A DNA stretch of 64,000 bases from Candidatus Gastranaerophilales bacterium (GTDB taxonomy: Bacteria; Cyanobacteriota; Vampirovibrionia; Gastranaerophilales; JANQFW01), in NCBI GenBank assembly GCA_028277625.1, contig JANQFW010000040.1:3036-67035 (forward strand), given 5' to 3'. The translations under genes were made by a program, and so were the position numbers. The first letter of the stretch is position 1. Each line of letters starts with the position of its first letter. The notes beneath the pieces were generated by a model. It did no database searches, was not told where the DNA came from, and saw only the letters and a program-made list of their open reading frames with translations. Positions 12,974-31,911 of this stretch are shown here, one piece after another.

Positions 12974-13164
12974 TCTTCTCTATCTCCTCCCCACTCTGCT
13001 TTATATAATAGCCTATTTAAAACTATATGTCTATTATAAAGAAAATTGATAACAACTTAAAAAATTAATGGGCTTAATAATATTCAATAAATGATTGAAT
13101 AAAAATATTATTTTACTTATATTTTAAATTGATTATTTAAATAAAAAGAGAGTAAATGTACAAT

Positions 13165-14880
13165 ATGAGAGTTACAGGTATAAACTATAATCAATACAGC
13201 AAGAGCAAGTCCAACAAGAAAAAAGAAAATAGCACAAATAATTTAACTAACAACAATATAACGATTCAAGGCAATGCAATGCTAGGATTAGAGAACGCAA
13301 ATAAGGCAATGTTGAGCTTAAAGAACAAGCTATCTTTCAAGGGAGACATTAAAAATCATGTAGGTGATAACTCATTTCTACAAGGGTTTAAACATAAACG
13401 GCTAAAAAGAGACAATATAACAGCAAACTCTTTATCAATACTATACTGCGATGCAAACGAAATTAAGGTAAAAAGACAAGTAATATTAGCGCATAGTCAT
13501 GCAAAAAAAATTACTGCAAATAAAGTAATCTTAACGGAAGAATCCTCGGCAGATAAAATTAATGCTGAAAAAGTTGTAGTAAAAGACTTCTGTCCAGTCG
13601 AATGGTGCCCTGATGAATTTAGAGAAGAAAGCAGTTATGCAAAAAAAATTGAGGCCGATAAAGTTTTGATATCTAATGGAGCTAGTGCAGATGTAATCAA
13701 TGCCCAAAAGGTCAAGTTAAAAGGCTCTAACTCTGAGGCCACAAATATAAAGTGTGACGAAATAACACTAATTAATAGGCGGCTTCTGGATGAAATTAAG
13801 CGTAAGCAAAAGAAAATTGAAGCTAATAAAGTTATTTTATTGAATTCTGATATTTTTGAAGATATAACGATAACCGAAAAGAACACCCCAAAGCTTGAAA
13901 TAACTGGTGATAGTATAGTTTTAGGAAAAATTATATTTAAAAATGCACCTGGTCTAGTCACCCTCACTCCAAATGAGCGTGGGGTGCATCCTCATATTGA
14001 TAAAAACAATGTTGAAAATGGAAAAGTAGTTATAAAGGGTGAAAGATTAAACATAAACAATAGTCAAAAAGAAAAAATAGATGTACATGAAATTAACGGT
14101 ACAACTTCTATTGGCGTAGAAGGAAATATAGAAGCTAACTTGCTAGATGCACCATTTGTTTCAATGAGGGGCAAATCCAGTACAGACCTAATAAAAGCTC
14201 ATACGATTGAATTATATGGAGATGAGAAAGGAAAAGCCTACGCAAAAGACATAGATGCCAAAGACGTTAGCATATACGGCGGTACAGCAACTAGAATTAA
14301 AGCGGAAGACTCAATAGAATTGTCTGAAGGCTCAATGGTTAAAAAAAATATTACAATGACAGGAAAGGAAAACCCTACAATTGAGCTCATTGGCAAAAAT
14401 ATATCATTAAAAGGCAAGATTTTATTTGACTCTAAAGCTAAAGATGCCCAAGTTATCATACACATGGATGAAAATGGCGACTATACAACTATAGATGAAG
14501 ATAAAGTTCAAAATGGAGTAATCATCTATAACAAAGATATTCAAGGTCTTAATATAAACTTAAAGGGAACTAAAAAAGTAGACAACATTAGCGCATTAAA
14601 TAATGCTGAATTAGCCAACCAAGTTTTTGCTAAAAGAATCACCGCTAAAAACTCTGTTAAGCTATCTGATAGTGCAACAGTCGAAGATGGCATAACAATG
14701 AACGGCAAAAAAAATCCAACGGTTAATATAACCGGCAACGACGTAACTGTTAATGGAAAAGTTGTATTCCCACCAGGTGCTAAAAATGCTCAAGTTGTCA
14801 TACCGCCTGACTATCCTGAGGAGAAAAAACAAGAGCTAAAAAGCAACATTGAGAATGGAAAAGTTGTTGTAAGCAAGTAA
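13165..14880 (+). CDS. BH1: beta-helix-repeat protein of the local six-member family (bactofilin-like repeats), three repeat-plus-cap units
   Basis: The family-type start 'MRVTGINYNQY' at ATG 13165 is preferred over the track start at 13156. It has 'LSFKG', repeats such as 'AKKITANKVILTEESSADKINAEKVVVKD', and cap modules at about 13861-14040, 14344-14535 and 14689-14877 ending 'IENGKVVVSK*'. Confidence 0.8.
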   Translation: MRVTGINYNQYSKSKSNKKKENSTNNLTNNNITIQGNAMLGLENANKAMLSLKNKLSFKGDIKNHVGDNSFLQGFKHKRLKRDNITANSLSILYCDANEIKVKRQVILAHSHAKKITANKVILTEESSADKINAEKVVVKDFCPVEWCPDEFREESSYAKKIEADKVLISNGASADVINAQKVKLKGSNSEATNIKCDEITLINRRLLDEIKRKQKKIEANKVILLNSDIFEDITITEKNTPKLEITGDSIVLGKIIFKNAPGLVTLTPNERGVHPHIDKNNVENGKVVIKGERLNINNSQKEKIDVHEINGTTSIGVEGNIEANLLDAPFVSMRGKSSTDLIKAHTIELYGDEKGKAYAKDIDAKDVSIYGGTATRIKAEDSIELSEGSMVKKNITMTGKENPTIELIGKNISLKGKILFDSKAKDAQVIIHMDENGDYTTIDEDKVQNGVIIYNKDIQGLNINLKGTKKVDNISALNNAELANQVFAKRITAKNSVKLSDSATVEDGITMNGKKNPTVNITGNDVTVNGKVVFPPGAKNAQVVIPPDYPEEKKQELKSNIENGKVVVSK

Positions 14881-16037: not shown

Positions 16038-16868
16038 ATGAATATAGGGAATAATACAGGAAGATTTGCAAGTATGACAACAATTAGTCCATACTGGACA
16101 CCAGTTGAATTTCCTGCGGCTGTGAGCAAAAATGCACAAACAATCGTAGATGATAGCGGTAATAATCAAAAGAGTCAAGCAGCAAGCGTCAACCTAATTG
16201 GAGCAGACGCAGCTCAAGCATTAAAAGCAAACTTAAATATCAAGCCTAGAAAAATTGACCAATTCAGAGAAAAAGAAATTGAAGATATAAAGCCTTTAAT
16301 TCTAGGAGTTTTAGGAGCCAGGCATTCTGCAACCAGGCAGCACTCAATGGGAGTAGCAATGTATACAAGAGAATTCTGCAAATCCCTGGGTTTGCCAACA
16401 GAAAAGATTAAAAAAATAGAAATGGGTGCACTATGCCATGACATTGGCAAAATATCACTACCTGACGACTTTTTTAACCAGAAAAATTTGACCCCTACTG
16501 TAAAGTGCGTATACAAAAGTCATCCAGTACAGAGTTATAATATTTTAAGCAGAGTTGCACCTTTAAGTAAAAATATTGCACTTATCGCAAAGTGTCATCA
16601 CGAAAAATATGATGGCACAGGATATCCGGAAGGATTAAAAGGCAATCAAATACCTATAGGAGCACGGATTGTTGCCGTTGCCGATGCTTTTGATTCAATG
16701 ACAAGAAAAAAATACCCTAAACAAAAAGTAAAAACTTTTGAGGAAGCAATTAAGGTAATAAGAGAGAATAGAAGTGGACAGTGGGATCCTGCTTTGACTG
16801 AACCATTTATCAGAGTCATTACAGCAGATAGTAATCAGTTATACAAAAAAGTATTATTTAGCACATAA
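16038..16868 (+). CDS. HD-GYP domain protein (predicted c-di-GMP phosphodiesterase), catalytic motifs intact
   Basis: 'RQHSMGVA', 'LCHDIGKISLP', 'KSHPVQS' and 'CHHEKYDGTGYPEGLKGNQIPIGARIVAVADAFDSM'. Confidence 0.85.
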   Translation: MNIGNNTGRFASMTTISPYWTPVEFPAAVSKNAQTIVDDSGNNQKSQAASVNLIGADAAQALKANLNIKPRKIDQFREKEIEDIKPLILGVLGARHSATRQHSMGVAMYTREFCKSLGLPTEKIKKIEMGALCHDIGKISLPDDFFNQKNLTPTVKCVYKSHPVQSYNILSRVAPLSKNIALIAKCHHEKYDGTGYPEGLKGNQIPIGARIVAVADAFDSMTRKKYPKQKVKTFEEAIKVIRENRSGQWDPALTEPFIRVITADSNQLYKKVLFST

Positions 16869-19381: not shown

Positions 19382-20242
19382 TTATAAACTTAATAAATAC
19401 TGGCCATAACCGTTTTTAACAAGTGGTTGAGCCAATTTAACAAGCTGTTGCTTATCAATGTAGCCCATATTGTATGCAACTTCTTCAACACATGCCACTT
19501 TGATGCCTTGATTGTTTTCTATAGTTTCAATATAATGAGAAGCTTGCATCAGTGCTTCATGTGTACCTGTGTCGAGCCACGCAAATCCTCTACCTAACAG
19601 TTCTACGTTAAGATCGCCTTCTTGCAAGTAGATATTATTCAAATCAGTAATTTCATACTCGCCACGAGGTGAAGGTTTTAGATTTTTTGCATATTCTACT
19701 ACTTTATTGTCATAAAAGTACAAGCCGGTAACAGCATAGTTAGATTTTGGATTACTAGGCTTTTCCTCGATTGATAAAGCTTTACCAGCTTTGTCAAAGT
19801 CAACCACACCAAAGCGCTCAGGATCTCTTACTGGATAGCCGAATACTGTTGCCCCTTGCGGTCTTTCAATTGAGCGCTGAAGCATATCAGAAAATCCAGG
19901 CCCGTAAAATATATTATCACCCAATACCAATGCAACATTATTGGAGTTCCCTATAAATTCTTCACCAATAACGAACGCTTGCGCTAATCCATCAGGTGAA
20001 GGCTGCACTGCATAGTTGATATTCACACCTAATTCATTGCCACTACCAAGTAACTGTTCAAATCTTGGTGTGTCTTGCGGTGTAGATATAATTAAAATAT
20101 CGCGTATACCTGCTAACATTAATACAGATAATGGATAATAAATCATAGGCTTATCATATATTGGCAATAACTGTTTTGATACAGATTTTGTAATGGGATA
20201 AAGCCTTGTTCCGCTGCCACCCGCTAAGATTATACCCTTCAT
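19382..20242 (-). CDS. rfbA: Glucose-1-phosphate thymidylyltransferase
   Basis: '[18 protein letters not shown]', '[18 protein letters not shown]', 'GLAQAF' and '[11 protein letters not shown]'. The start is taken at the internal ATG 20242, which overlaps the rfbD stop by 4 nt. The track ORF extends to 20305. Confidence 0.92.
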
Positions 20243-21078
20243 TTTGTTATTACCTCTTTTCTCAAACTTAAATAGCCTTCTAATGCTTTTTCCCAGTCCT
20301 GACATAAATTTTCGTTATCCATAATTGAATATCTTGGTCTATTTGCAGGCCTTGGAAAATCTTCTGTGTTACAAGGCAAAAGATTTACATTTATTTTTTC
20401 TAATTCAAATATTTTCTTGGCAAAGCCATACCAGCTAGTGTTGCCAGCCCCACAAGTATGGAAAATACCATACGGCATTTTGCTTTCAATCAAATGTAAA
20501 ACAGCTTTTGCTAAATCAACTGTCCAAGTAGGGCAACCAACCTGATCAGCAACTACTTTTAATTCATCTCTTGTTGTACCAAGCTGAATCATTGTCTCAA
20601 CAAAATTTTTGCCCTGATGCCCATATAGCCAGCTGGTCCTACATATATAATGCTTGTTATTGTGCTTTTTCACAGCAACTTCACCTGCCAACTTAGAATC
20701 TCCATATACATTTATAGGAGCAACTTTATCATCCGGCACATATGGAGAATTCTTAGTACCGTCAAATACATAATCTGTACTTATGTACACAATAGGGATA
20801 GCCTTTTGAGCTGTTGCTATTGCTAAATTTTCAGTACCTGCACCATTTACCAGGAAAGCAGTTTCTTTGTCAGCTTGTGCTCCGTCAACATTTGTATACG
20901 CAGCACAATGTATAACTATATCAGGTTTATCCTCTGATATTTTTGATATTACAGCATTTTTATCTGTAATATCAAGATTATAAATATCTGTTAAAGTTAC
21001 TTCAAATCCTTTTTGTTGGAACAGCTTAGTCATATCACGACCAAGCATGCCATTAGCTCCTGTTAATAGAACCTTCAT
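20239..21078 (-). CDS. rfbD: dTDP-4-dehydrorhamnose reductase
   Basis: '[13 protein letters not shown]', '[11 protein letters not shown]', 'STDYVFDG' and 'YGDSKLAGE'. Confidence 0.88.
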
Positions 21079-22064
21079 TGAATCTGCAGTTCCTTTCTAT
21101 TTTGTATATTGCTCATCCACTTTTTATTATCAAGATACCAATTAATAGTCAATTGTATACCTTGTTCAAAAGTAACAGAAGGCTCCCAGCCTAGCTCATT
21201 TTTCATTTTTGAGCTGTCAATAGCGTATCTGCGATCATGCCCTAATCGGTCTTCAACATATTTTATTAAAGATTCAGGCTTTTTAAGTTCTTTTAATAGT
21301 AATTTTGTTATTTCAATATTGGTTTTTTCATTGTTACCACCAATATTGTATACATCGCCAACTTTACCTTTATGTAAAACAGCATCAATTGCTGAGCAAT
21401 GATCATAAACATATAACCAATCTCTTACATTCAAGCCATCTCCATACACAGGCACTTGCTTATCCTCTAATAAATTATTTATAAATAACGGTAACAATTT
21501 TTCAGGGAACTGATATGGACCATAGTTATTAGAGCATCTTGTTGTTAAAACCGGCATGTTAAATGTTTCATAGTATGCTCTCACTAACATATCAGCTGAT
21601 GCTTTACTTGCTGAGTATGGGCTGTTAGGGGCAAGCGGAGTTGTTTCGGTAAAGTATCCTGTTTTGCCTAATGTACCATACACCTCATCAGTAGAAACCT
21701 GTAAATATCTATGAAGATTAAAGCTCCTTGCTGCTTCTAAAAGGTTTAAAGTTCCTTTTACGTTAGTCTCAACAAATATTTCCGGTCCTGTAATACTTCT
21801 GTCTACATGACTTTCTGCTGCAAAGTTAATACAGCAATCTACCTGCGACATTAAATCCATTACAACTTTTTTATCGCATATGTCACCTTGCACAAAGTTA
21901 TAATTTGGGTTGTTTTCAATATCTTTTAAATTATCTGGATTGCCGGCATAGGTAAGAATATCAAGGTTTATAACTTTATAACCAGGATACTTGTTTAAAA
22001 TATGCCTTACAAAGCAACTACCTATAAATCCTGCTCCACCTGTGACTAATAATTTCATTGTCAT
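21075..22064 (-). CDS. rfbB: dTDP-glucose 4,6-dehydratase
   Basis: 'LLVTGGAGFIGS', 'HFAAESHVDRS'-like 'NFAAESHVDRS', 'STDEVYG' and 'YSASKASADMLV'. Confidence 0.92.
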   Translation of the reverse strand: MTMKLLVTGGAGFIGSCFVRHILNKYPGYKVINLDILTYAGNPDNLKDIENNPNYNFVQGDICDKKVVMDLMSQVDCCINFAAESHVDRSITGPEIFVETNVKGTLNLLEAARSFNLHRYLQVSTDEVYGTLGKTGYFTETTPLAPNSPYSASKASADMLVRAYYETFNMPVLTTRCSNNYGPYQFPEKLLPLFINNLLEDKQVPVYGDGLNVRDWLYVYDHCSAIDAVLHKGKVGDVYNIGGNNEKTNIEITKLLLKELKKPESLIKYVEDRLGHDRRYAIDSSKMKNELGWEPSVTFEQGIQLTINWYLDNKKWMSNIQNRKELQIQ

Positions 22065-22295
22065 TCCTCCGCCTAATATATTACAAGTTACAAATAAATT
22101 TTATTTTATTTAAAATTAAAAAATAATAAAATTAGTAATGTTGTTACTTTAAAAAATTAATCATTTCTTTTGCTATTATCAATCAACATAAATACATTAT
22201 CAATTATTTACCTTGATAAATTTTAAAAAAGTAATAATTTTTTATTTATTTATCAGGTTTATTTTAATACAATAATATTAAAAGAGTTAAATTAT

Positions 22296-23588
22296 TTGCA
22301 AAAAAGAACATTTTTAATGTATTCAAATTTAATAACCAAGCTAAAAAGCAATGAAAATGAATTGGTGTCGAATACTTTTACATTATTAACAGGAGCAGCA
22401 TTTTCTCAAATTGTAATGATATTGTTTGCACCAGTATTATCTAGGATTTATACTCCAGGAGAGTTTGGCATATTTGGTTTTTACTTAGCATTTACATCAA
22501 TCGGCGCAAATATAGCAACATTTAAATATGAACTTGCCTTAGTATTGCCCAAAAGCGATAAACAAGCTGCTAACTTACTATTAATTCCAATAGCTATATC
22601 AATACTTATATTTTTGCTTAGCACATCCATTCTCTTTTATTTTGCAAAAAATTTTAATACAAATAATTTTGTCATATACAATCTTATATTAATAGGCATT
22701 CTAGTAAGCGCAATATTTAATATATTTCAGAGCTGGAATACAAGATATAAATACTACAAAAATCTAGCACTTTCCAGAATGATAAGATCATCAAGCACTG
22801 TAGGTTTTCAATTTTTTTCAAAATTTTTGGGATTTCCTTTAAATGGTTTAATACTAGGACAAATTATAGGATGTGTACTGGGTATCTCTTCTCTCATAAG
22901 CAATACGCTAAAAAAAAGAAAAATTAAATTTATCCAGTTTTCAAGAAAGCTTATATTTTTAAATATAGTTAAATATAAAGATTTTGCCCGATACCAAAGT
23001 CCATCTATGCTCATGAATACAATGTCTCAATACACACCCCTTCTTATGCTTCCAATCTTATTTTCTAATGAAATAGCCGGATTTTATGCCATTACAATGC
23101 GAGTTATGATTCTGCCGGCTAATATGCTTAATCAGGCAATAAGAAGCACTTACTACCAAAAAGCTACAGAGCTATACAATAGCAAAAATAGCATAACTGA
23201 TTTATTTTTGAGTACATTAAAATTCCTTGCAAGGCTATACTTAATACCAGCAGTGATTATTGCGCTGTTTGGCCCATCGATATTTTCTATTGTTTTCGGA
23301 AAAAACTGGGAAATCTCAGGGCGTTATGCGCAGCTGTTAGTATTTTATTTTTTCTTTGGTTCTATTAATGTCCCAGCTGTTATGTCTTCTTATATCCTTG
23401 GGCTACAAAAGCTTAACCTGATTTACGAAATTTTATTACTAATATTCAGATTTTTAAGTATTTATTTAGGTTACTTATTATTTGATAATTCTTTTATATC
23501 CATTTTTTTGTTTTCTATGGTCGGTGCTGTTTTTAATTTTATTTATATTATTATTATATTTTATAAAATAAAAAATATAATAAAGTGA
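22296..23588 (+). CDS. Polysaccharide flippase (Wzx-like, MOP superfamily)
   Basis: About 430 aa, strongly hydrophobic with many predicted TM segments and the usual N-terminal '...LTGAAFSQIVMILFAPVLSRIYTPGEFG'. The start is either TTG 22296 or ATG 22317. Confidence 0.7.
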   Translation: MQKRTFLMYSNLITKLKSNENELVSNTFTLLTGAAFSQIVMILFAPVLSRIYTPGEFGIFGFYLAFTSIGANIATFKYELALVLPKSDKQAANLLLIPIAISILIFLLSTSILFYFAKNFNTNNFVIYNLILIGILVSAIFNIFQSWNTRYKYYKNLALSRMIRSSSTVGFQFFSKFLGFPLNGLILGQIIGCVLGISSLISNTLKKRKIKFIQFSRKLIFLNIVKYKDFARYQSPSMLMNTMSQYTPLLMLPILFSNEIAGFYAITMRVMILPANMLNQAIRSTYYQKATELYNSKNSITDLFLSTLKFLARLYLIPAVIIALFGPSIFSIVFGKNWEISGRYAQLLVFYFFFGSINVPAVMSSYILGLQKLNLIYEILLLIFRFLSIYLGYLLFDNSFISIFLFSMVGAVFNFIYIIIIFYKIKNIIK

Positions 23589-24835
23589 AGAAAAAACAAA
23601 TGAAAAGGCTAATTAGTGGGGCTTATAAAAAATTATACCTACCAGATGACCATAACAAATATAATATTGATAAAATCTTAGACTATGCATTTAATAATGT
23701 TGAATATTATAAACAGTTCAAAGGCTGCAAATTATCAGAAATACCCATATTAACAAAAGACATAATTAGAGATAGCTATAATGAATTACTCTGCGATGAG
23801 ATTAATAAAAGAAAAACTTATATAAACACTTCTGGTGGTACAACTGGCGAACCTGTCAGGCTTGTGCAGGATCAAAACTACAGAAATAATTTTAGATTAA
23901 CTACTTACAGGCAAAAACAAGAAATCGGTTATAGCTTTGCAGAGCCTATGATAAAAATCTGGGGAAGCGAAAGAGATATATTAAAAGGCTCAATAGGCTA
24001 CAGGGCAAAGCTTTTTAATTACTTAAAAAATTGCCATTTTCTTAATTCTTTTTATTTATCAGAAGGAATTATAAAAAATCATATTAAAATAATAAATAAA
24101 ATAAAACCCAGGCTAATAGTGGGCTATGTGCACTCTATGCATGAAATTTCGCAGTATATAAATAAAAATAATATAAACATTGCACCAGTGCCAGTAATTA
24201 TGTGTACAGCTGGGACTTTGTATAGTTTTATGGAAAATGAAATATCAAAAGCTTTTAAAGCTAAGGTAATAAATCGCTACGGTAGCCGAGAAGTCGGCAA
24301 TATAGCCTGCTCTACATTTCAGCATAATGATTTAAAAGTTGCTCAAAATCATGTATATATCGAAATTGTTGACAACCAAGGAAATCTTTGTCCAGAAAAT
24401 ACTGAAGGTAATATAGCCATCACGTTATTATCCAATTATTCGATGCCACTGATTAGATATAAAATCGGAGATAGGGGAGTGCTTAATTTAACAAACTTTG
24501 GCTATCCTGTCTTAACAAAACTAAGTGGTAGAGAGAATGAATTTCTACGCTGCGCATCAGGTAAAATGGTTGATGGGGAATTTATTACACATATGTTTTA
24601 TTTTAAAAATTGGGTGCAAAAGTTTCAGGTGATACAAAATGACCTTGTAAGTCTTGATGTAAATGTATTGTGTAACTATCAGCCTACACTAAAAGAGGTC
24701 ATTACTTTAGAGCAAGAGCTAAAAAATGTTATGGGACTTAGTTTTACGATTAATTTTAACTTTGTTGACGAAGTTAAGCCGCAAAGCTCAGGTAAGTTTT
24801 CTTATGTTATCTGTAATATAAACAACCTCACCTAG
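23585..24835 (+). CDS. CapK/PaaK-like adenylate-forming enzyme (phenylacetate-CoA ligase family)
   Basis: It has the 'TSGGTTGEPV' AMP-binding loop and is 416 aa. The GTG start overlaps the upstream stop (GTGA), which suggests translational coupling with the flippase gene. Confidence 0.7.
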   Translation: MKKKQMKRLISGAYKKLYLPDDHNKYNIDKILDYAFNNVEYYKQFKGCKLSEIPILTKDIIRDSYNELLCDEINKRKTYINTSGGTTGEPVRLVQDQNYRNNFRLTTYRQKQEIGYSFAEPMIKIWGSERDILKGSIGYRAKLFNYLKNCHFLNSFYLSEGIIKNHIKIINKIKPRLIVGYVHSMHEISQYINKNNINIAPVPVIMCTAGTLYSFMENEISKAFKAKVINRYGSREVGNIACSTFQHNDLKVAQNHVYIEIVDNQGNLCPENTEGNIAITLLSNYSMPLIRYKIGDRGVLNLTNFGYPVLTKLSGRENEFLRCASGKMVDGEFITHMFYFKNWVQKFQVIQNDLVSLDVNVLCNYQPTLKEVITLEQELKNVMGLSFTINFNFVDEVKPQSSGKFSYVICNINNLT

Positions 24836-24993
24836 AATCTGCTTGCCTATTCCTAGTTTATTTTATTAAGTTTAACACGATTTAATAATCTGAAAAATAT
24901 TTTAGAGACAACATAAAAAACTACAGAGAAGAGTTTGTGTTATATTTTTTTACAATATAATCTATTATTTAAATTTAATTAAAGAGAGAGAGT

Positions 24994-26898
24994 ATGCAAA
25001 TTATAGGAATTGGCAACAAGCTGAATAAAAATAAATTTAATACAAATAATAATCCATCCCTATCTTTCAAGGGTAGTAATTCAAGTAAAATGAACAGTTT
25101 AAATAGTGATACATTAACACTAAACCGAAAAAGCAATGTATCTTTTAACAGCAAATCTCTATTAGAAAATATGTTCATAAGAGACAAAATTGTAAGGAAA
25201 GGTAGACATAAATTAGGCTTGTTAGAAGCAAAAACCTTGGTTTCAATAACAAATTGTACAGCTAAAAACATCAGCTCAGGTGGATCAGTCGAATTATTGG
25301 ACAAATCCAAGTGTAAAGAGGAAATCAATGCAAAAAAAGAAGTTAAGCTAGACGGGAAAAGTTCTGCTGGTAAAATTCAGACCGATGGGTCAGTGGAATT
25401 ATTGAATGAGTCCAGTTGTGATTTGGTCAATGCCAAAAAAGATGTTAAGTTAGACGGAAAAAGTACTGCTGATAAAATTCACTCTGATGGTTCAGTAAAG
25501 TTATTGAATGGATCCACATGTCAGGATAAAATCAATGCAAAAACCGTATTATTGAGTAAATCCAAAGGTGAAGACATCAAGGCAAGTAAAGTTGAATTGC
25601 TGAACAACTCAGAATGTGATGACATTAAGGCTAATAACGTAAAATTAGAGGGACTTTCTTGCGCTGGAAGCATTCAATCTAGTGGCTTAGTAGAGTTATT
25701 GAAGAGATCTAATTGTGAAGATATCAAAGCAAAAGAAGTTAAATTAACTGAAAAAAGCTTTGTTATCAAAAACATTGAAACGGATAAATCTGTAATATTG
25801 TTTGATAATACAACAGTTGGAAAAAATGTCATTATAAAAGGATTAGAAAGCCCTGAAGTCTCAATAACAGGTAACGTAAATGTGGGTGGAAAAATTAAAT
25901 TTTTAAAAAACGCAAACGGAAAAGTCAGGCTCTATGGCAATAAATCTATGGACTATCCTGATATCGACGAAAGCAAAGTAACAAATGGAAAAATTGTCTA
26001 TGACGTTGATGACATGAAACTTGATGGCAAAGCAAAGACTGATATACATGCAAAGTCCGCCACATTAACAAATAGTAAAGCCAAAAACCTTTTTGCTGCT
26101 AAAAATGTTACCTTGCAGGACTATTCATACGTAGAAAGCTTAATTAAGGCAAAAAACGTTAAACTAGATAACAGTTCTAAAGCTAAAGATATTAAGGCCA
26201 AAGAGTCCGTAATCCTTAATAATTCAAGGGTACTTGGCAAAATCGAAGCAAAATCTGCCAAGTTAACAAATAGTAAAGCTGAAAAGATTAACGCAACTAA
26301 GGCTGCAAACTTGGACAACAACTCCCATGTCGTAAACTCAATAACTGCCCAAAAAGTTAAACTGGATAATAACTCTAAAGCTAAAAATATTAACGCTAAA
26401 GAGTCAGTAAGCCTGCTTAATAGCTCATCTGTTCTAGGTAAAGTTGAAGCAAAAACTGTAAAGATAGATGGAAAAGATACTTATGCTCACAAAATTGTGG
26501 CAAAAGGTGATATTGCAAAAGTAGAACTAAACAATAATGCACAAGCTTCTGAAATTAAATGCGAAAAAGATGTTTATTTAAGAAAAGGCAGCAAGGCTGA
26601 CCAAGTTTTCATTGGTAGGTCTATAACGTTAACTGATGATACAGAAGTTACTGAAATAATAGGTGAAGGTGAGCCAACAATTAAAATAAATGACAAAGCA
26701 ACTGTCTGTGATATTGTATTAAAAAATACATCCAAGGTTAAAGTGGACCTCTCACCTGAAAGTATAAAGGGTATTATTCAATTTGAGTCTACTTCTTCCG
26801 AAAATAGAGTTTTTGTACCCCACAACATGCCAAAATCTCAAATAGAAAAACTAAAAGCTAAAGTTCAAAATGGTAAAATTGAAAGGTTAGCAGAATAA
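24994..26898 (+). CDS. BH2: beta-helix-repeat family protein, two repeat-plus-cap units
   Basis: 'MQIIGIGNK...LSFKG', repeats 'EDIKASKVELLNNSECDDIKANNVKLEGLSCA', an internal cap at about 25827-26005, and a C-terminal cap ending 'VQNGKIERLAE*'. The RBS is 'aaagagagagagt'. Confidence 0.85.
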   Translation: MQIIGIGNKLNKNKFNTNNNPSLSFKGSNSSKMNSLNSDTLTLNRKSNVSFNSKSLLENMFIRDKIVRKGRHKLGLLEAKTLVSITNCTAKNISSGGSVELLDKSKCKEEINAKKEVKLDGKSSAGKIQTDGSVELLNESSCDLVNAKKDVKLDGKSTADKIHSDGSVKLLNGSTCQDKINAKTVLLSKSKGEDIKASKVELLNNSECDDIKANNVKLEGLSCAGSIQSSGLVELLKRSNCEDIKAKEVKLTEKSFVIKNIETDKSVILFDNTTVGKNVIIKGLESPEVSITGNVNVGGKIKFLKNANGKVRLYGNKSMDYPDIDESKVTNGKIVYDVDDMKLDGKAKTDIHAKSATLTNSKAKNLFAAKNVTLQDYSYVESLIKAKNVKLDNSSKAKDIKAKESVILNNSRVLGKIEAKSAKLTNSKAEKINATKAANLDNNSHVVNSITAQKVKLDNNSKAKNINAKESVSLLNSSSVLGKVEAKTVKIDGKDTYAHKIVAKGDIAKVELNNNAQASEIKCEKDVYLRKGSKADQVFIGRSITLTDDTEVTEIIGEGEPTIKINDKATVCDIVLKNTSKVKVDLSPESIKGIIQFESTSSENRVFVPHNMPKSQIEKLKAKVQNGKIERLAE

Positions 26899-26947
26899 TA
26901 TTACTCGATGTTTTAAGATAATATCAGTAAAAAGAAAGAGAAAAAAT

Positions 26948-27868
26948 ATGCGCATTACAGGCATTGGCTACAGTCAGTATAAAAAAAATAATAATCCAAA
27001 TAGCGTAAGCACACAAAAATCAAATAATCTAAACCGTTTTGCAAAAATGAACACTGCAAATCAAGACCAATTAACATTAAGTCAGAAAAAAAGTAGTGTA
27101 TCCTTTAAAGGTATAGAGATGTCTAAGTTTAGTGAGGATATAAAACAAAATACTGATGTAAATCTAATAAATGAAAGAAAATCTAATATAAAAGCTCCTT
27201 CTGTTACAATGACAAATAGCGAAGCAAACGATATTAAAGCTGAAACATATGTTAAAATGGTTAAAAGTCGTGCAAATAATATTAATGCCGGCGAATCAGT
27301 AAAACTATCTAATAACTCTAGCGCAAAAAAAATTGTAGCCTCAATGGTTGAGTTAACTGGAAAAATTCCTGAAAAGGAAAGTGAAGAAAACTCAAATGGT
27401 TTGATAAAAGCATATAGGCGTGCAACACCCAAAATCGATATCAAACAACAGATAGCGAACATGACTGGTGTCGAAAGAATTGAAGCTGAAAATAATGTAA
27501 AGCTATCAAACAATTCAGTGGCAGGAGTAATTATAGCTAACACAGTAGAATTATTAAATAAATCTAGGGCTACTGATATTACAGCTAAAACTAGCGTTTC
27601 AATAACTAATGCAAATGCTACTGATGTCAAGGCGGGAAAAGTAGACTTATATAATAATGCAAAGGTTTCAAATATAACAATAACAGGGGACAAAGAAACT
27701 AATAAATCCCCTCAAGTTGCTATGCATGATAATGATGTAAATATTAATGCGAGTATAAAATTTTTAAAAAAGAATCCTGGTAGAGTTTATGTGCCTTCAG
27801 GTATGCCGGAATATAAGCAGCAAGAACTAAGGGATAAAATTATTAATGGCGAACTTGAAGTAATGTAA
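26948..27868 (+). CDS. BH3: beta-helix-repeat family protein, single unit
   Basis: 'MRITGIGYSQYKK...VSFKG', repeats 'NDIKAETYVKMVKSRANNINAGESVKLSNNSSA', and the cap 'ITITGDKETNKSPQVAMHDNDVNINASIKFLKKNPGRVYVPSGMPEYKQQELRDKIINGELEVM*'. Confidence 0.85.
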   Translation: MRITGIGYSQYKKNNNPNSVSTQKSNNLNRFAKMNTANQDQLTLSQKKSSVSFKGIEMSKFSEDIKQNTDVNLINERKSNIKAPSVTMTNSEANDIKAETYVKMVKSRANNINAGESVKLSNNSSAKKIVASMVELTGKIPEKESEENSNGLIKAYRRATPKIDIKQQIANMTGVERIEAENNVKLSNNSVAGVIIANTVELLNKSRATDITAKTSVSITNANATDVKAGKVDLYNNAKVSNITITGDKETNKSPQVAMHDNDVNINASIKFLKKNPGRVYVPSGMPEYKQQELRDKIINGELEVM

Positions 27869-27974
27869 ATTTAATGGGCGCAAATTTACCATTTATTATA
27901 ACAATATTTATTTTAGTTTTAATATTGTTTATGATATTAATTTAGTATAATTATAAAAATAAGGTAAGGTAAAT

Positions 27975-30239
27975 ATGCAAATCTCAAGAATCGGCTATAA
28001 TAACTACAAAAAAACTAGTGCTAACAACAAAGAAAGCAATAAAAAGACAAACTTAGAGAACCTATCCTCATCCAAAGAGATTGCCTTTAATACCAAAGGT
28101 CTATTGGGATTAGGTTCTTTAAATAGAGCTATAGTAAACTTAAGTAATTCTAAGAATAACATCTCATTTAAAGGTACATTCGTAAATAATAGCGAAGAGC
28201 TGCAAAAGATAGATGCAGACAAGATAGGAAGTGAAAACGAGGATATAAAAATAGATGATCATATAAGCGTAAAAAACATAATAGGAGGATATGTTGAAAT
28301 AACAGGCAAGGAGAATAACTTTGCTCAATCAGGTAATATAACAGCCCAAGGCTGTGTGAACTTAACCTATGCTAACTCTGGGAATATTAAATCAGAAAAA
28401 GGTAAAGTAAACATAACAGGTAACAGGCATAACCTTGCCCAAGTAGGCAATATAACAACCCCAAAAAATGTAGATTTAAGCTATGCTCTATCCAAGGATA
28501 TTAAATCTGAAGGTAGGGTCATTTTAACAGACAATAGCACAGCAAATAATATTAATGCAAAAAATGTAACTTTAGCTTATGGGAGTACAGCTGGCAATAT
28601 TGATGCACAAAATAAGGCTTATATATACAAGTCTACTGCCAAAGATATTAGTGCAAAATGTGTAACTTTGGCTAATAAAAGCCATATTAACTCTGTTAAA
28701 GCAGAGAACTATGTAGAAATACTAGATGACAAAAATATTGTCAATGCCAATATAACATTAACCGATAGCGAAAACCCAAGAGTTATTATAGAAGACAAGG
28801 ACGTAAACATTGATGGAAACATTATATTTCCTGAGTACTCTAATGGAAAATTGTTTACTCCTCTTGACTATCCAAAAGACAAGCTATCGGAATTAAATGG
28901 TAAAATTAAAAATGGAGAAATTGAGGCAGGATTAATAAACAATTCAGATCTATTAAAAACAATAGACAGTAATATAGATCAAAAGTATGACATAAACCTG
29001 GAAGGTAATATAAAAGCTCAAGATATAAATGGTAAATCTGTTAATATAAATGGTATTCTTCTTCCCCTTACCATATACAACGATGTATACCAGATTAATT
29101 ATTTAATGCCTTACCCTTGTACGGTAGGTAATATAACTGCCAGTAATGACATTTATTTAGCTATGGCTAAATCTGAAGATATTGAATCAAAAAAAGGTTG
29201 TGTAACTATAGAAGGTTTTAAAGCAAAAAATGACGATCCTAATGCAATTCAAGACAGCATCGAAGTCAAGTCCAAGTCTGGTGATATAACAGCCCAAAAA
29301 GATATTGTAGTGCAACATGCTACTGTAGGTAACATTAAATCAACAGATGGAATTGTAACTTTAAAAAGTCCAAAGAATGAGACAAAAGCTCAAAACGTAG
29401 AAGGTAAAGAGATAGTTATACAAGGGTCTCCAGAATATAGAGTTAGTGTAGGTGACATCACTGCAAAAAATAAGGTTGATTTAGCTAGGACTATATCTGG
29501 GGATATTAGATCAGAACAAGGCAGCGTAACAATAGATGGTTTTGAGTCCACAGCCAAGTCTGGTGATATAACTGCAAAAAATAATATTACAGTGCAAAAT
29601 GCGACTGTAGGGAAGATTAAGTCAATAGATGGAGATGTAACTTTAAAAAGTCAAATAAATAGTGCAAAAGCTAACAATGTAGAGGGAAGAAATGTAATCA
29701 TAAATGGAAACCCTCAACATGCAATTAGTACAGCTAATGTAAAAGCTGAAAATAAAGTTGAATTGAATAATACCAATGCAGATATTGTTAAAGGAGAAAA
29801 AGTGCTTCTCTCAGGTCATAGCAAAGTAAATGCTATCTTTGCTAACAACATAGTCAATGTAACTTCTGGCTCTACTGTAACTGATACAGTAAAGGCTCCT
29901 GAAATTTCTATTGATAGTGATTCTAGCGTAAACTCTATTATAGCTAAAAACAAAGTAGAATTATCAGAAAGTGCCAATATTACTGGCAATATAGAATTAA
30001 ACGACAATAAAAAACCGGTAGTTATTATAAATAGTAATGACGTTAATATTCGCGGAAATATTATATTTTCAGAGGAAAAAGATACCTCTAAAAGCAAATG
30101 TTTCCCTAGTTTAAAGTCACCTAAAGGCACAGTTTATATACCTAAAGATTATCCTAAGGATAAAAAACAAAAACTAAAAGCCAAAATAAAAAATGGAAAA
30201 ATAAAAACTTTAAAAGCAAATGTAGGGAAGATAGAGTAA
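27975..30239 (+). CDS. BH4: beta-helix-repeat family protein, largest member (754 aa), two units
   Basis: 'MQISRIGYNNYKK...ISFKG', an internal cap at about 28749-28930, and the C-terminal cap '...GTVYIPKDYPKDKKQKLKAKIKNGKIKTL'. Confidence 0.85.
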   Translation: MQISRIGYNNYKKTSANNKESNKKTNLENLSSSKEIAFNTKGLLGLGSLNRAIVNLSNSKNNISFKGTFVNNSEELQKIDADKIGSENEDIKIDDHISVKNIIGGYVEITGKENNFAQSGNITAQGCVNLTYANSGNIKSEKGKVNITGNRHNLAQVGNITTPKNVDLSYALSKDIKSEGRVILTDNSTANNINAKNVTLAYGSTAGNIDAQNKAYIYKSTAKDISAKCVTLANKSHINSVKAENYVEILDDKNIVNANITLTDSENPRVIIEDKDVNIDGNIIFPEYSNGKLFTPLDYPKDKLSELNGKIKNGEIEAGLINNSDLLKTIDSNIDQKYDINLEGNIKAQDINGKSVNINGILLPLTIYNDVYQINYLMPYPCTVGNITASNDIYLAMAKSEDIESKKGCVTIEGFKAKNDDPNAIQDSIEVKSKSGDITAQKDIVVQHATVGNIKSTDGIVTLKSPKNETKAQNVEGKEIVIQGSPEYRVSVGDITAKNKVDLARTISGDIRSEQGSVTIDGFESTAKSGDITAKNNITVQNATVGKIKSIDGDVTLKSQINSAKANNVEGRNVIINGNPQHAISTANVKAENKVELNNTNADIVKGEKVLLSGHSKVNAIFANNIVNVTSGSTVTDTVKAPEISIDSDSSVNSIIAKNKVELSESANITGNIELNDNKKPVVIINSNDVNIRGNIIFSEEKDTSKSKCFPSLKSPKGTVYIPKDYPKDKKQKLKAKIKNGKIKTLKANVGKIE

Positions 30240-30241
30240 AT

Positions 30242-31114
30242 ATGCAAATCTTAAGAATCGGCTATAGTAGCTACAAAAGAACTGGTACTAACACTAAAAA
30301 CAACAACCAAAAATTTAAAACTAATGCTGCTTTTAAAGGTAGTAGCATTGATGGATTAGAACTTCCAATACCTCCAAGGTGGCTTAATGATATTGCTCTA
30401 AACTCAGTCACTATAAATTCAGAAACAGCTGTTAAGTTGATAGGCAGAAGAGTAGATAAAATTATATCCAATAGCTCAGTTGCATTAGAGAACAGTAAAG
30501 TTAAAAAACAGATAAAAGCAGGTGGAGACGTAAGCTTATCTAACAATTCAGAGGCGAAAAGTATTGATTCTAAAGGTAATGTTGAAATTAGCTATAATAG
30601 CAAGGTTAACAATATTAGCGCGGTTGAAGGATTGGTAAAATTGAATAACAACTCCCACGCAAAAGCAATTAGCGCCAAAAATGTTGAGTTATTTAGTGGT
30701 AGTACTTGCACAGATAGTATTAGAGCAAGTAATTCAGTAACACTGTACTGGGCATCCAAAGCAAATAAAATTGAAGCTAAAGAAATAACGATATATGGAA
30801 AAGGCTCATATGCGGAAAAATGTACTGCACATGAAAATGCTAAAATTAACGAGGGCGGATCAGCTGAAAATATTAGTGCAGGTAAACTAATAATACTTGG
30901 CAAAGCTAATATTACTGGAAATATAACAATAACAGGCAATGATAGGCCAGTAGTCAGAATCCTCTCTAAGGATACAAACATCGAAGGTGAAATTAAATTC
31001 CAAGAAGATTCAAAGGGCAAAGTCTTTGTCCCCAAAGACATGTCAACAGAAAAAAAAGAAGAACTCAAAAGGAATATTACTAATGGCAAACTTGAAGAAG
31101 TGCCAGTAGCGTAG
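30242..31114 (+). CDS. BH5: beta-helix-repeat family protein, single unit
   Basis: 'MQILRIGYSSYKR...AAFKG' and the cap 'ITITGNDRPVVRILSKDTNIEGEIKFQEDSKGKVFVPKDMSTEKKEELKRNITNGKLEE'. The ATG lies 2 nt after the BH4 stop codon. Confidence 0.85.
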   Translation: MQILRIGYSSYKRTGTNTKNNNQKFKTNAAFKGSSIDGLELPIPPRWLNDIALNSVTINSETAVKLIGRRVDKIISNSSVALENSKVKKQIKAGGDVSLSNNSEAKSIDSKGNVEISYNSKVNNISAVEGLVKLNNNSHAKAISAKNVELFSGSTCTDSIRASNSVTLYWASKANKIEAKEITIYGKGSYAEKCTAHENAKINEGGSAENISAGKLIILGKANITGNITITGNDRPVVRILSKDTNIEGEIKFQEDSKGKVFVPKDMSTEKKEELKRNITNGKLEEVPVA

Positions 31115-31233
31115 CATAATAAAACTTACTCGAACACTAGCAATTATTTTTTTTAGGTGTTTTAAAGCTTTCAACTTGTTAATTAAAAAGTAACATCATA
31201 GTTTAGTTTTCAAAAAGAAAGTAAGGAATAAGT

Positions 31234-31911
31234 ATGAGAATTGCAGGGATAGGTATTAATCCGTTCAAAAAAAACAATAGCATCAGCCAGCAAAAGAACA
31301 ATTTTGCCCCACCTTTTAAAGGTGCTAATTTAAGCCGTGATACATTAACTTTAAGCCATAAAACTAACCAAATTGCATTTGGAGCACAAGATGTAATAGT
31401 ATATAACGGGAAAAAAAACTTAGGTGATATAAAGACCAACGTACCTGTTTATTTAACTAGTTGTGAAGCAGGGGATATTAACTCTAAAAAGATTGTTAAT
31501 TTAGTTAATTGCAATGCTCAGGATATTAAATCCGAAAAGGCTGTTAATCTAAATAATACCACTGCCGGAAAAATTAGTGCAGAATCAACCTCATTACATG
31601 AGCGATCAAAGGTTGTAAGTATAACAGCAAAAAATTCAGTGACATTAGGTAAGGGTTCAATGGTTAAAGACAATATAATATTGAAAGGTCAAAACTCGAC
31701 GGTGCGCATTCTTAGTAACGGTCGAACAGAAGATACAACTGAAGAAGAAAGAGAACCCATGATGATTGGAGGAAAAATTATATTTCCTAAAAACGCCCGT
31801 AACGCAACAGTTGTTCTACCAGAGGATACAACTACTGAAGAGTTCGATAAGTTCAAATCACAAATTGAAAATTGGAAAGTTATTAAAAGACAGCCAACAC
31901 TATCTATTTAG
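31234..31911 (+). CDS. BH6: beta-helix-repeat family protein, shortest and most divergent member
   Basis: 'MRIAGIGINPFKK...PPFKG', repeats 'GDINSKKIVNLVNCNAQDIKSEKAVNLNNTTAGKISAE', and the divergent cap '...IIFPKNARNATVVLPEDTTTEEFDKFKSQIENWKVI'. Confidence 0.8.
   Translation: MRIAGIGINPFKKNNSISQQKNNFAPPFKGANLSRDTLTLSHKTNQIAFGAQDVIVYNGKKNLGDIKTNVPVYLTSCEAGDINSKKIVNLVNCNAQDIKSEKAVNLNNTTAGKISAESTSLHERSKVVSITAKNSVTLGKGSMVKDNIILKGQNSTVRILSNGRTEDTTEEEREPMMIGGKIIFPKNARNATVVLPEDTTTEEFDKFKSQIENWKVIKRQPTLSI

What the first reader, a model, noticed from the sequence alone, without database searches (positions are those of the whole stretch)
24994..31911. Tandem array of five paralogous beta-helix-repeat proteins (sixth copy at 13165-14880) with a three-part architecture I cannot assign to a described family
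**Seen:**
- Six plus-strand ORFs share one plan: 13165-14880, 24994-26898, 26948-27868, 27975-30239, 30242-31114 and 31234-31911.
- Part (i) is an N-terminus M-[RQ]-[IV]-x-[GR]-I-[GN], then an N/K/S-rich linker ending in [SAP]-F-K-G.
- Part (ii) is a variable number of ~16-18-residue repeats of the form x-[DN]-I-x-A-x-x-V-x-L-x-x-x-S-x-A, for example 'EDIKASKVELLNNSEC' and 'DDIKANNVKLEGLSCA'.
- Part (iii) is a closing module: IT[ILM]TG..P.V.I...DV.I.G.I.F....G.V.VP.D.P..K..EL...I.NGK[IV].
- Sizes range from 225 to 754 aa according to module number.
- No hydrophobic signal peptide or TM segment is visible.

**Knowledge:** this short I-x-A-x-x-V-x-L periodicity is what right-handed beta-helices of the bactofilin type (PF04519) look like.

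**Inference:**
- This is an expanded, fast-diversifying family of beta-helical filament, fibre or surface proteins.
- About 8.6 kb of this window is devoted to it.
- It is my best candidate for an undescribed system here.
Basis: partly seen in the sequence, partly recalled or inferred. Interest (0 to 1): 0.8.

Follow-up and report, generated by a model that had tools for sequence, protein, structure and literature searches.

The report
Capped bactofilin-like beta-solenoid protein family
Six genes in this window encode a very rare family of rod-shaped beta-solenoid proteins, distantly bactofilin-like, that carry a previously undescribed end-cap domain and a conserved N-terminal tail; they are probably cytoplasmic scaffold proteins of gut Melainabacteria-type bacteria, and their function is untested.

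Summary
Six + strand genes (one at 13165-14880, five in tandem at 24994-31911; 8,358 nt) share three parts:
- a basic, disordered N-terminal tail with conserved short motifs (M-x-I-x-x-I-G-Y-x-x-Y-K-K and phi-S-F-K-G);
- 16-17-residue coils that AlphaFold2 predicts with high confidence as mostly beta-strand, read here as a beta-solenoid;
- a ~65-residue closing module, present 10 times, so each protein holds 1-3 "rod + cap" units.

The bactofilin link is only partly supported. Pfam PF04519 passes its threshold for two of the six proteins, and only as a sum of weak stretches. PDB sequence and fold searches do not retrieve bactofilins. The cap and the tail match no Pfam or NCBIfam family.

The family is tiny: 27 hits among 1.84 billion representative proteins, six of them from this window. 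The closest relatives form a similar tandem array in a Candidatus Gastranaerophilales MAG. Other relatives fuse tail, rod and cap to a classical AAA ATPase or to hydrophobic C-terminal regions. Together with the missing signal peptide, this favours a cytoplasmic scaffold or adaptor role over surface fibres. No gene neighbourhood is conserved.

Verdict: new variant of a known kind; moderate interest; function inferred, not shown.

The parts
13165..14880 (+). Paralogue A, 571 aa (574 aa if the ATG at 13156 is used): N-tail plus three rod+cap units
   Evidence: ORF. Three closing modules at residues 233-293, 394-458 and 508-571. PF04519 below threshold at 11.3 bits.
24994..26898 (+). Paralogue B, 634 aa: N-tail plus two rod+cap units; the most regular coils (at least 20 detected)
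   Evidence: PF04519 42.4 bits, E 8.9e-11, summed over 6 stretches. AlphaFold2 of unit 2: pLDDT 90.9, pTM 0.86. 102-nt tandem repeat at 25325-25510 and a 198-nt duplication at 26050/26248.
26948..27868 (+). Paralogue C, 306 aa: N-tail plus one rod+cap unit, with a non-repeat insert at about residues 139-175
   Evidence: No PF04519 hit.
27975..30239 (+). Paralogue D, 754 aa: N-tail plus two rod+cap units; the second unit has longer, less regular coils and a 282-nt internal duplication (29272/29554)
   Evidence: PF04519 37.7 bits over 4 stretches.
30242..31114 (+). Paralogue E, 290 aa: N-tail plus one rod (about 10 coils) plus cap. It starts 2 nt after the stop of D, and its 5' end is 81% identical to that of D over 85 nt
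   Evidence: AlphaFold2: pLDDT 83.4; residues 1-50 disordered; strands 57-264; helix 269-277; last strand 282-287.
31234..31911 (+). Paralogue F, 225 aa: the smallest member; N-tail, about 5 coils, and a cap carrying an acidic insert
13165..13344 (+). N-terminal tail of A (60 aa). Equivalent tails: B 24994-25152, C 26948-27112, D 27975-28175, E 30242-30391, F 31234-31380. Motifs: M-[RQ]-[IV]-x-[GR]-I-[GN]-Y-x-x-Y-K-K, an N/K/S-rich spacer, one or two [IVA]-[SA]-F-K-G, and between them L-x-N-x-x-[LV]-[ST]-L
   Evidence: Alignments. Net charge +5 to +8, pI 10.1-11.2. pLDDT below 50 in the model of E. The tail is also found on relatives and on two small non-solenoid proteins in L004.
13861..14043 (+). 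Closing module (cap) A-1, internal type, ending G-x-H-P-x-I-D-x-x-x-V-x-N-G-K-V
14344..14538 (+). Cap A-2, internal type
14686..14877 (+). Cap A-3, terminal type (P-x-D-Y-P-x-x-K-K-x-E-L-K-x-x-I-x-N-G-K)
25822..26010 (+). Cap B-1, internal type
26650..26895 (+). Cap B-2, terminal type with an extra inserted coil
   Evidence: In the model of B unit 2: helix at 275-282 and a final strand.
27668..27865 (+). Cap C, terminal type
28746..28931 (+). Cap D-1, terminal-type sequence in an internal position
29985..30236 (+). Cap D-2, terminal type with a 13-residue insert
30917..31111 (+). Cap E, terminal type
31669..31908 (+). Cap F, terminal type with an acidic insert

Best explanation
The six genes encode a lineage-restricted family of cytoplasmic, modular beta-solenoid proteins that are distantly related to bactofilins. 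So far the family is seen only in Gastranaerophilales-type (Melainabacteria/Vampirovibrionia) assemblies.

**Anatomy**
- (a) A disordered, strongly basic N-terminal tail of about 50-65 residues with conserved short linear motifs.
- (b) One to three stiff rods built from 16-17-residue coils, about 4-13 coils per rod.
- (c) A ~65-residue cap domain that ends each rod. It consists of two irregular coils followed, in the terminal type, by a short alpha-helix and a last strand.

**Proposed mechanism (inferred, not shown)**
- The rods act as structural scaffolds or spacers of graded length.
- The tail anchors them to the inner face of the membrane or to a common partner.
- The cap closes the C-terminal end of each solenoid. 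If it does, it may prevent the tail-to-tail stacking that canonical bactofilins use to polymerise.
- In relatives the same tail-rod-cap unit serves as the N-domain of a classical AAA ATPase. The unit is therefore a cytoplasmic targeting or adaptor device, and that ATPase may remodel assemblies of the stand-alone paralogues.
For: **Shown**
- Six paralogues and ten caps.
- Coil period of 16-17 residues.
- High-confidence AlphaFold2 models, mostly beta-strand with period about 17, with a disordered tail and a helix-containing cap.
- Pfam Bactofilin above the gathering score for B and D.
- No signal peptide or transmembrane segment.
- Basic tails.
- A cap profile finds only 27 proteins in 1.84 billion representatives.
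- Relatives P0007, P0008, P0016, P0022 and P0026 have the same plan.
- P0009, P0011, P0015, P0018 and P0023 carry coils and cap fused to PF00004 AAA (all five) plus AAA_lid_3 (P0009, P0015, P0018). P0009 and P0011 also keep the N-tail. P0010 has the same fusion, with its tail on a separate 46-aa upstream ORF.
- P0017 and P0021 carry the unit in front of long C-terminal regions with hydrophobic segments.
- A Gastranaerophilales MAG has a tandem array in which two small non-solenoid proteins carry the same tail. The tail is therefore a portable module.

**Inferred**
- Cytoplasmic location, from the AAA fusions and the absence of export signals.
- Docking or membrane role of the tail, by analogy with bactofilin N-terminal membrane-targeting peptides (PMC12448750).
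- Capping that limits end-to-end polymerisation.
Against: - There are no expression, localisation or interaction data.
- The bactofilin relationship rests on summed weak Pfam stretches in two of the six proteins. PDB profile search and Foldseek do not retrieve bactofilins.
- Model coordinates could not be inspected, so handedness, cross-section and the geometry of the cap are unknown.
- The tail motif differs from the bactofilin MTS consensus MFSKKKK.
- Tandem, divergent, repeat-number-variable paralogues next to surface-polysaccharide genes and a Maf glycosyltransferase are also what a surface-protein family would look like.
- No AAA-fused member is present in this window.
Confidence: 0.5

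Rival explanations
1. The proteins are surface or secreted fibres or adhesins. They would be exported by a non-classical route, with either the conserved N-terminal tail or the C-terminal cap as the signal. They might be glycosylated by the neighbouring Maf-type transferase, and the paralogue array would provide antigenic or adhesive diversity.
For: - The genes form a tandem array of divergent paralogues with variable repeat number and internal duplications.
- Copy A lies divergently next to a Maf/PseD-like flagellin-modification glycosyltransferase.
- The array lies directly downstream of rfbB/D/A, a Wzx-type flippase and a PaaK-like ligase.
- The best, though non-significant, fold matches are extracellular solenoids: tapirin, MpAFP and adhesins.
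- In L004 the array sits beside two signal-peptide proteins (801 and 851 aa) resembling two-partner-secretion exoproteins; this is judged by eye from their sequences and was not tested.
Against: - There is no Sec, Tat or lipoprotein signal and no hydrophobic segment.
- The same tail, rod and cap are fused to a classical AAA ATPase, which must act in the cytoplasm, and P0009 and P0011 keep the tail.
- The cap is internal in many proteins, so it is not a C-terminal secretion signal.
- There are no Flagellin_N/C or RTX matches.
- Neither Maf nor rfb genes are near the relatives.
- The proteins are basic rather than acidic.
Confidence: 0.2
2. The proteins are simply very divergent canonical bactofilins: nucleotide-independent polymer-forming cytoskeletal proteins. 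They would assemble end-to-end into filaments, with the tail acting as a lineage-specific membrane-targeting sequence.
For: - PF04519 hits above threshold for B and D, and weak hits in A, E and P0026.
- A disordered N-terminal tail precedes the beta-helical region, as in bactofilins.
- Some phyla have bactofilin N-terminal motifs unlike the global consensus (PMC12448750).
- Bactofilin relatives with 13 windings (BacEF) or two subdomains (HalA) are known (PMC11459167).
Against: - Each solenoid ends in a conserved folded cap with a helix instead of an open last winding followed by a disordered C-tail. If the cap covers the end of the solenoid, this argues against tail-to-tail stacking.
- Single Pfam stretches are all weak and flagged 'faint'.
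- A family profile finds no bactofilin chain in the PDB, and Foldseek does not list bactofilin structures among its top 50 matches.
- C and F give no Pfam hit at all.
Confidence: 0.2
3. The ORFs are not real genes. They would be chance open frames in AT-rich, low-complexity DNA, or decaying pseudogenes.
For: - The composition is low-complexity and N/K/S-rich.
- Long antisense ORFs overlap the array.
- No source gives the proteins a name.
Against: - Purine-rich ribosome-binding sites lie 5-10 nt upstream of five of the six starts; spacing is ambiguous for A.
- The cap and the tail are conserved in independent assemblies.
- AlphaFold2 confidence is very high even from shallow alignments.
- The reading frames stay open for up to 754 codons.
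Confidence: 0.03

Closest known systems
Canonical bactofilins (Pfam PF04519/DUF583; e.g. C. crescentus BacA, T. thermophilus TtBac, PDB 6RIA)
   Same: - The core is beta-helical, built of short coils with an inward-facing I/V/L pattern.
- Pfam PF04519 scores above threshold for B and D.
- A disordered N-terminal tail begins with Met plus hydrophobic residues followed by lysines, as in the bactofilin membrane-targeting peptide (PMC12448750).
- The proteins lack signal peptides.
   Different: - The rods have 4-13 or more coils per unit instead of six windings, and there are 1-3 units per chain.
- Every unit ends in a conserved ~65-residue cap that has no Pfam match. Bactofilins have an open terminal winding followed by a disordered C-tail.
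- The tail motif is M-x-I-x-x-I-G-Y-x-x-Y-K-K ... S-F-K-G rather than MFSKKKK.
- No bactofilin is retrieved by PDB profile search or by Foldseek.
- Polymerisation is untested.
Extended or duplicated bactofilin relatives: BacE/BacF-type (13 windings) and archaeal halofilin HalA (two bactofilin subdomains) (PMC11459167)
   Same: - They show that the bactofilin fold tolerates more windings.
- They show that it can be duplicated within one chain, as seen here.
   Different: - HalA has two six-winding subdomains head-to-head, joined by an alpha-helical hairpin.
- Here the units are in series, each closed by the family-specific cap, and the number of coils is variable.
- No sequence relationship to these groups was tested directly.
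Classical AAA ATPases with substrate- or adaptor-binding N-domains (PF00004 + AAA_lid_3)
   Same: Relatives P0009, P0010, P0011, P0015, P0018 and P0023 place the coils and cap exactly where such ATPases carry their N-domain.
   Different: - None of the six window proteins has an ATPase domain.
- No AAA gene of this type lies in the window.
Extracellular beta-solenoid adhesins and ice-binding proteins (tapirin 6N2C, MpAFP RIV 3P4G, TPS exoproteins)
   Same: - They share the general solenoid shape.
- They are the top Foldseek matches, with TM-scores of 0.28-0.42.
   Different: - The matches are not significant (E of 0.1 or worse).
- Those proteins have export signals or Ca2+-binding repeats, which are absent here.

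Membership tests
Bactofilin (PF04519 / DUF583) | Match to the Pfam Bactofilin profile at or above the gathering score (27.9 bits) | tested here: inconclusive
   - B 42.4 bits and D 37.7 bits pass, but only as sums of 6 and 4 weak stretches.
- The precomputed per-stretch hits are flagged 'faint'.
- A 11.3 and E 13.7 bits fail; C and F have no hit.
Bactofilin (PF04519 / DUF583) | Compact right-handed, three-faced beta-helix of about six windings that superimposes on solved bactofilins | tested here: inconclusive
   - AlphaFold2 gives high-confidence models that are mostly beta-strand with period about 17 and about 10-13 coils.
- Coordinates could not be inspected.
- Foldseek against the PDB lists no bactofilin in its top 50 matches and nothing below E = 0.1.
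- A family profile against PDB sequences finds nothing.
Bactofilin (PF04519 / DUF583) | [quoted passage not shown] | tested here: not met
   - The N-tail is disordered (pLDDT below 50).
- The C-terminal end of every unit is a conserved folded cap with a helix and a final strand.
Bactofilin (PF04519 / DUF583) | N-terminal membrane-targeting sequence of the MFSKKKK type | tested here: not met
   - The tail begins M-[RQ]-[IV]-x-[GR]-I-[GN]-Y-x-x-Y-K-K. The published consensus is MFSKKKK (PMC12448750).
- The general character (N-terminal Met, hydrophobic residues, lysines, net charge +5 to +8) is similar.
Bactofilin (PF04519 / DUF583) | Nucleotide-independent polymerisation into non-polar filaments | not testable with these tools
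   This needs purified protein and EM, or multimer structure prediction, which was not available.
Flagellin or another Maf substrate | Flagellin_N / Flagellin_C domains | tested here: not met
   No such Pfam or NCBIfam match at E up to 1. Maf adjacency is seen only for copy A and not near the relatives.
Secreted beta-helix adhesins (autotransporter, TPS, RTX) | Signal peptide or TPS domain, or RTX nonapeptide repeats with a C-terminal T1SS signal | tested here: not met
   - No hydrophobic N-terminus.
- No Pfam match to these families.
- The proteins are basic.
- The cap occurs internally and upstream of AAA domains.
Left-handed hexapeptide-repeat (LbH) acyltransferases | Hexapeptide-repeat Pfam match and an 18-residue (3 x 6) coil | tested here: not met
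   Only one sub-threshold hit: PF24894 in D, 15.2 bits against a cutoff of 23.3. The coil period is 16-17 residues.
Known anti-phage defence proteins (PADLOC) | Match to a PADLOC model | tested here: not met
   None of the six matches. Only the AAA domains of relatives P0009 and P0010 hit the generic IetA and TRIP13 AAA models.

The most novel reading that the evidence does not exclude
The conserved N-terminal tail (M-x-I-x-x-I-G-Y-x-x-Y-K-K ... S-F-K-G) is a new cytoplasmic address peptide of Gastranaerophilales-type bacteria. It would recruit unrelated proteins to one cellular structure: capped beta-solenoid rods of graded length, a dedicated classical AAA ATPase, small disordered proteins and possibly a membrane protein. 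The rods would form a previously unknown cytoskeletal or scaffold assembly that the ATPase remodels.
Probability: 0.12. Interest if true: 0.8.

Novelty: new variant of a known kind. Interest (0 to 1): 0.45.

Why it matters
Bactofilins are the least understood of the widespread bacterial cytoskeletal families. How their polymerisation is limited and how they are targeted are open questions.

If this family is bactofilin-derived, it would matter in three ways:
- **A natural capped form.** Its C-terminal end carries a dedicated cap domain, and the units are strung in series.
- **A possible remodelling link.** In relatives the unit is fused to an AAA ATPase, which hints at active remodelling of a nucleotide-independent scaffold.
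- **Two uncatalogued modules.** Neither the cap (~65 residues) nor the tail is in Pfam or NCBIfam, and both come from an uncultured gut lineage (Melainabacteria) whose cell biology is essentially unknown.

If the surface-fibre reading were right instead, the tail would be a new export signal. Either way the claim is testable with a few recombinant proteins.

Tried and rejected
1. Single-sequence and profile word-indexed searches found nothing beyond the query itself, not even the paralogues. Only the exhaustive profile search found relatives.
2. PDB sequence searches were uninformative.
   - B gave nothing useful and the first-unit profile A4 gave nothing.
   - The cap profile A3 hit only designed symmetric beta-trefoils (Symfoil). 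Those hits are three identical stretches of about 8.5 bits summed to E 1.8e-5. I treat this as a hairpin-level resemblance, not homology.
3. Foldseek of both models against the PDB and BFVD gave no match below E = 0.02, only generic solenoids.
4. Collection scans mostly failed.
   - Genome contigs with D found nothing, so the source genome is not among the GTDB representatives.
   - Metagenome contigs with terminal caps found nothing.
   - With AAA-group caps, two short contigs of the AAA-fused type were found.
5. Maf, rfb or Wzx genes as functional partners: rejected as a conserved association, because none of the relatives' loci has them.
6. Defence system: rejected.
7. Flagellin-like N-terminus: no profile support.
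8. The tail on further proteins (window 48760-49461, L012 GH77, L013 295-aa protein).
   - A loose regex suggested it.
   - The tail profile scores them at E of 0.15 or worse, so this is kept only as a lead.
9. A partner like the small hydrophobic (predicted two-TM) protein downstream of the AAA fusions was sought in the window and not found.
10. RNA genes: no Rfam or tRNA hit in the window.

Full report
**1. The observation**

The six + strand ORFs are present as described: A 13165-14880, B 24994-26898, C 26948-27868, D 27975-30239, E 30242-31114 and F 31234-31911. Together they span 8,358 nt.
- Purine-rich ribosome-binding sites lie 5-10 nt upstream of five of the six start codons; for A the spacing is ambiguous.
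- For A an ATG at 13156 is also possible. Family conservation of M-[RQ]-[IV] at position 1 favours 13165.
- The paralogues are 24-35% identical overall.

**2. Anatomy**

*The N-terminal tail (49-67 residues).*
- It carries M-[RQ]-[IV]-x-[GR]-I-[GN]-Y-x-x-Y-K-K, then an N/K/S-rich spacer, then one or two copies of [IVA]-[SA]-F-K-G. Between the two copies lies an L-x-N-x-x-[LV]-[ST]-L element.
- The tails are strongly basic, with net charge +5 to +8 and pI 10.1-11.2.
- In the AlphaFold2 model of E, residues 1-50 have pLDDT below 50.

*The repeats.*
- Hydrophobic autocorrelation peaks at 16-17 and 32-34 residues in B, C, E and F.
- An iterated coil profile gives the consensus DIKAKKSVKLLNNSSA with steps of 15-19 residues. 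At least 20 coils are detected in B.

*The closing module.*
- It occurs ten times: three in A, two in B, two in D and one each in C, E and F. The proteins are therefore chains of one to three 'rod + cap' units.
- Two flavours exist. Most internal caps end G-x-Y-P-x-I-D-x-x-x-V-x-N-G-x-I. Terminal caps, and D-1, end P-x-D-Y-P-x-x-K-K-x-E-L-K-x-x-I-x-N-G-K.

*Other features.*
- No hydrophobic segment long enough for a signal peptide or membrane helix exists.
- DNA-level duplications show that units grow by internal duplication: a 102-nt tandem and a 198-nt duplication in B, and a 282-nt duplication in D. The 5' ends of D and E are 81% identical.

**3. Predicted structure**
- E, modelled with an alignment of six first units, gives mean pLDDT 83.4 and pTM 0.79. 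Regular strands run from residue 57 to 264, followed by a helix at 269-277 and a last strand at 282-287.
- B unit 2, modelled with ten units aligned, gives pLDDT 90.9 and pTM 0.86, with the same layout and a helix at 275-282.
- The models are mostly beta-strand with period about 17, which I read as a beta-solenoid closed by a helix-containing cap.
- Foldseek found nothing significant in the PDB or BFVD. The best PDB matches are generic extracellular solenoids at E of 0.1 or worse.

**4. Relation to known families**
- Pfam Bactofilin (PF04519) exceeds its gathering score for B (42.4 bits) and D (37.7 bits), as sums of weak stretches. A and E are below threshold, and C and F have no hit. The precomputed annotation calls the hits 'faint'.
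- NCBIfam and PADLOC give nothing.
- The 24 caps scanned one by one give no Pfam family.
- A cap profile hits only designed beta-trefoils in the PDB through three summed weak repeats. A profile of whole first units hits nothing.
- The bactofilin relationship is therefore plausible but weak. The cap and the tail are undescribed.
[quoted passage not shown] Some phyla have deviant N-terminal motifs (PMC12448750). Versions with 13 windings (BacEF) and with two subdomains (HalA) are known (PMC11459167).

**5. Relatives elsewhere**
- An exhaustive profile search with the cap found 27 proteins at E of 1e-3 or better among 1.84 billion representatives. Six are from this window and about five are spurious.
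- All six window proteins are singletons in the 15-billion-protein collection. They are known only from an NCBI contig of 83.5 kb and from two Logan runs.
- True relatives fall into three groups.
  - (a) Same plan as the window proteins: P0007, P0008, P0016, P0022/P0028 and P0026. P0014 is a fragment.
  - (b) Coils and cap fused to a classical AAA ATPase (PF00004 in all six; AAA_lid_3 in P0009, P0010, P0015 and P0018): P0009, P0010, P0011, P0015, P0018 and P0023. P0009 and P0011 also keep the N-tail. The tail of P0010 sits on a separate 46-aa upstream ORF.
  - (c) The unit followed by long C-terminal regions with hydrophobic segments: P0017 and P0021.
- P0007 and P0008 are adjacent in a MAG titled Candidatus Gastranaerophilales bacterium (JANQLL010000069.1). 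That array has four genes, and two of them are small proteins (110 and 97 aa) with the same tail but no solenoid. The tail is therefore a portable module.
- The AAA fusions are each followed by a small gene encoding a protein with hydrophobic segments.
- No gene neighbourhood is shared between the loci. Maf and rfb genes are absent near the relatives.
- The source organism of the window was not identified directly. Three things make a Gastranaerophilales-type bacterium likely (inference): the closest relatives, the shared sequencing runs with P0016 and P0028, and the gene content (about 31% G+C, MCP, Maf, HypF, SpoIID).

**6. Interpretation**
- The AAA fusions that keep the tail, the absence of export signals and the internal position of many caps argue that the tail-rod-cap unit works in the cytoplasm.
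- The basic tail with conserved short motifs looks like a docking peptide, either for the anionic membrane face, as in bactofilins, or for a common partner.
- The cap, if it covers the C-terminal end of each solenoid, should prevent the tail-to-tail stacking that bactofilins need for filament growth.
- I therefore favour cytoplasmic scaffold or spacer rods of graded length. In relatives the same unit acts as an adaptor or targeting N-domain of an AAA ATPase. My confidence is about 0.5. All functional steps are inferred.
- Rivals:
  - Surface fibres, possibly glycosylated by the adjacent Maf (about 0.2). This is suggested by the array structure and by the local context in this window only.
  - Ordinary divergent bactofilin polymers (about 0.2).
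  - Non-genes (about 0.03).

**7. Verdict**
- The bactofilin label is partly right, and the surface-protein idea is disfavoured.
- This is a new variant of a known kind of protein. It contains two uncatalogued modules and belongs to a very small family from an uncultured gut lineage.
- Interest is moderate (0.45). The anatomy is unusual for bactofilin-like proteins and makes testable predictions, but nothing yet ties it to a function or a system.

Noticed in passing
window 48760-49461 (+): This 233-aa protein of no known family starts MIINSKKILNTRNYRLHSPNNKAKKNNVAFKGQ..., resembling the family's N-tail, and continues with several hydrophobic segments that look like membrane helices. In two orthologues (70-73% identity) the stretch NKAKK-x-x-VAFKGQ is invariant while the residues before it vary. 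The tail profile scores it only at E = 0.15, so sharing of the tag is a lead, not a result.
   Followed up: partly
L004 184-516 and 3363-3656 (Candidatus Gastranaerophilales MAG JANQLL010000069.1): Two small proteins (110 and 97 aa; Pro-rich and Gly/Ser/Asp-rich) flank the relatives P0007 and P0008. They carry the same N-terminal tail (MNIRLMGNLNPYKK...VAFNG) but no coils or cap. The tail is therefore a portable module.
   Followed up: partly
window 10982-12973 (-): A Maf/PseD-like flagellin-modification glycosyltransferase (MptE-like plus Maf_flag10_N domains) is transcribed divergently from copy A. No flagellin or nonulosonic-acid synthesis gene is visible in the window. No Maf gene lies near the relatives elsewhere, so the adjacency is probably coincidental.
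   Followed up: partly
window 19382-24835: Genes for dTDP-sugar synthesis (rfbA/D/B-like, - strand), a MOP/Wzx-type flippase (22296-23588) and a PaaK/F390-synthetase-like adenylating enzyme (23585-24835) lie directly upstream of the five-gene array. This looks like a surface-polysaccharide cluster. The association is not conserved near the relatives.
   Followed up: partly
L006 11118-11528, L009 4253-4681, L013 1188-1508: Each AAA-fused relative is followed, with overlapping or abutting stop and start codons, by a small (106-142 aa) protein of no known family. The 136- and 142-aa ones have two hydrophobic segments and the third at least one. This may be a conserved two-gene unit. No counterpart was found in the window.
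   Followed up: partly
L012 1658-3841 and L013 2852-3739: A GH77 4-alpha-glucanotransferase (727 aa, MRILNYTMNSRVAGVYANAQQPSFKR...) and a 295-aa protein (MKILNVNAPFFTKLNFKG...) lie on contigs that carry AAA-fused relatives. Their N-termini resemble the tail by eye and by a loose regex, but the tail profile does not score them.
   Followed up: partly
cap profile A3, positions 43-75: The second half of the cap (kIkF..enkkGkVil..d..g..p.i....V.NG) aligns with each of the three identical repeats of designed FGF-derived beta-trefoils (Symfoil, 3P6J). Each repeat scores about 8.5 bits, and the summed E-value is 1.8e-5. This is probably a hairpin-level resemblance.
   Followed up: no
window 27082-27693 (-), 30592-31089 (-), 24975-25328 (-): Long antisense ORFs (117-203 aa) overlap the family genes. 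They are hydrophobic mirror images of the N/K/S-rich sense frames and most likely are not genes.
   Followed up: no
L004 3950-6505 and 6627-9032 (-): Two paralogous proteins of 851 and 801 aa lie next to the relatives' array. They have signal peptides and an N-terminal region that resembles a haemagglutinin/two-partner-secretion domain, judged by eye from the sequence (...NPNGILFG...).
   Followed up: no
window 16-1023 (+) and 16038-16868 (+): Two HD_5 (HD-GYP-type) proteins, one of them carrying a partial GGDEF domain, together with an MCP at 44589-46286, point to c-di-GMP signalling and chemotaxis in the source organism.
   Followed up: no
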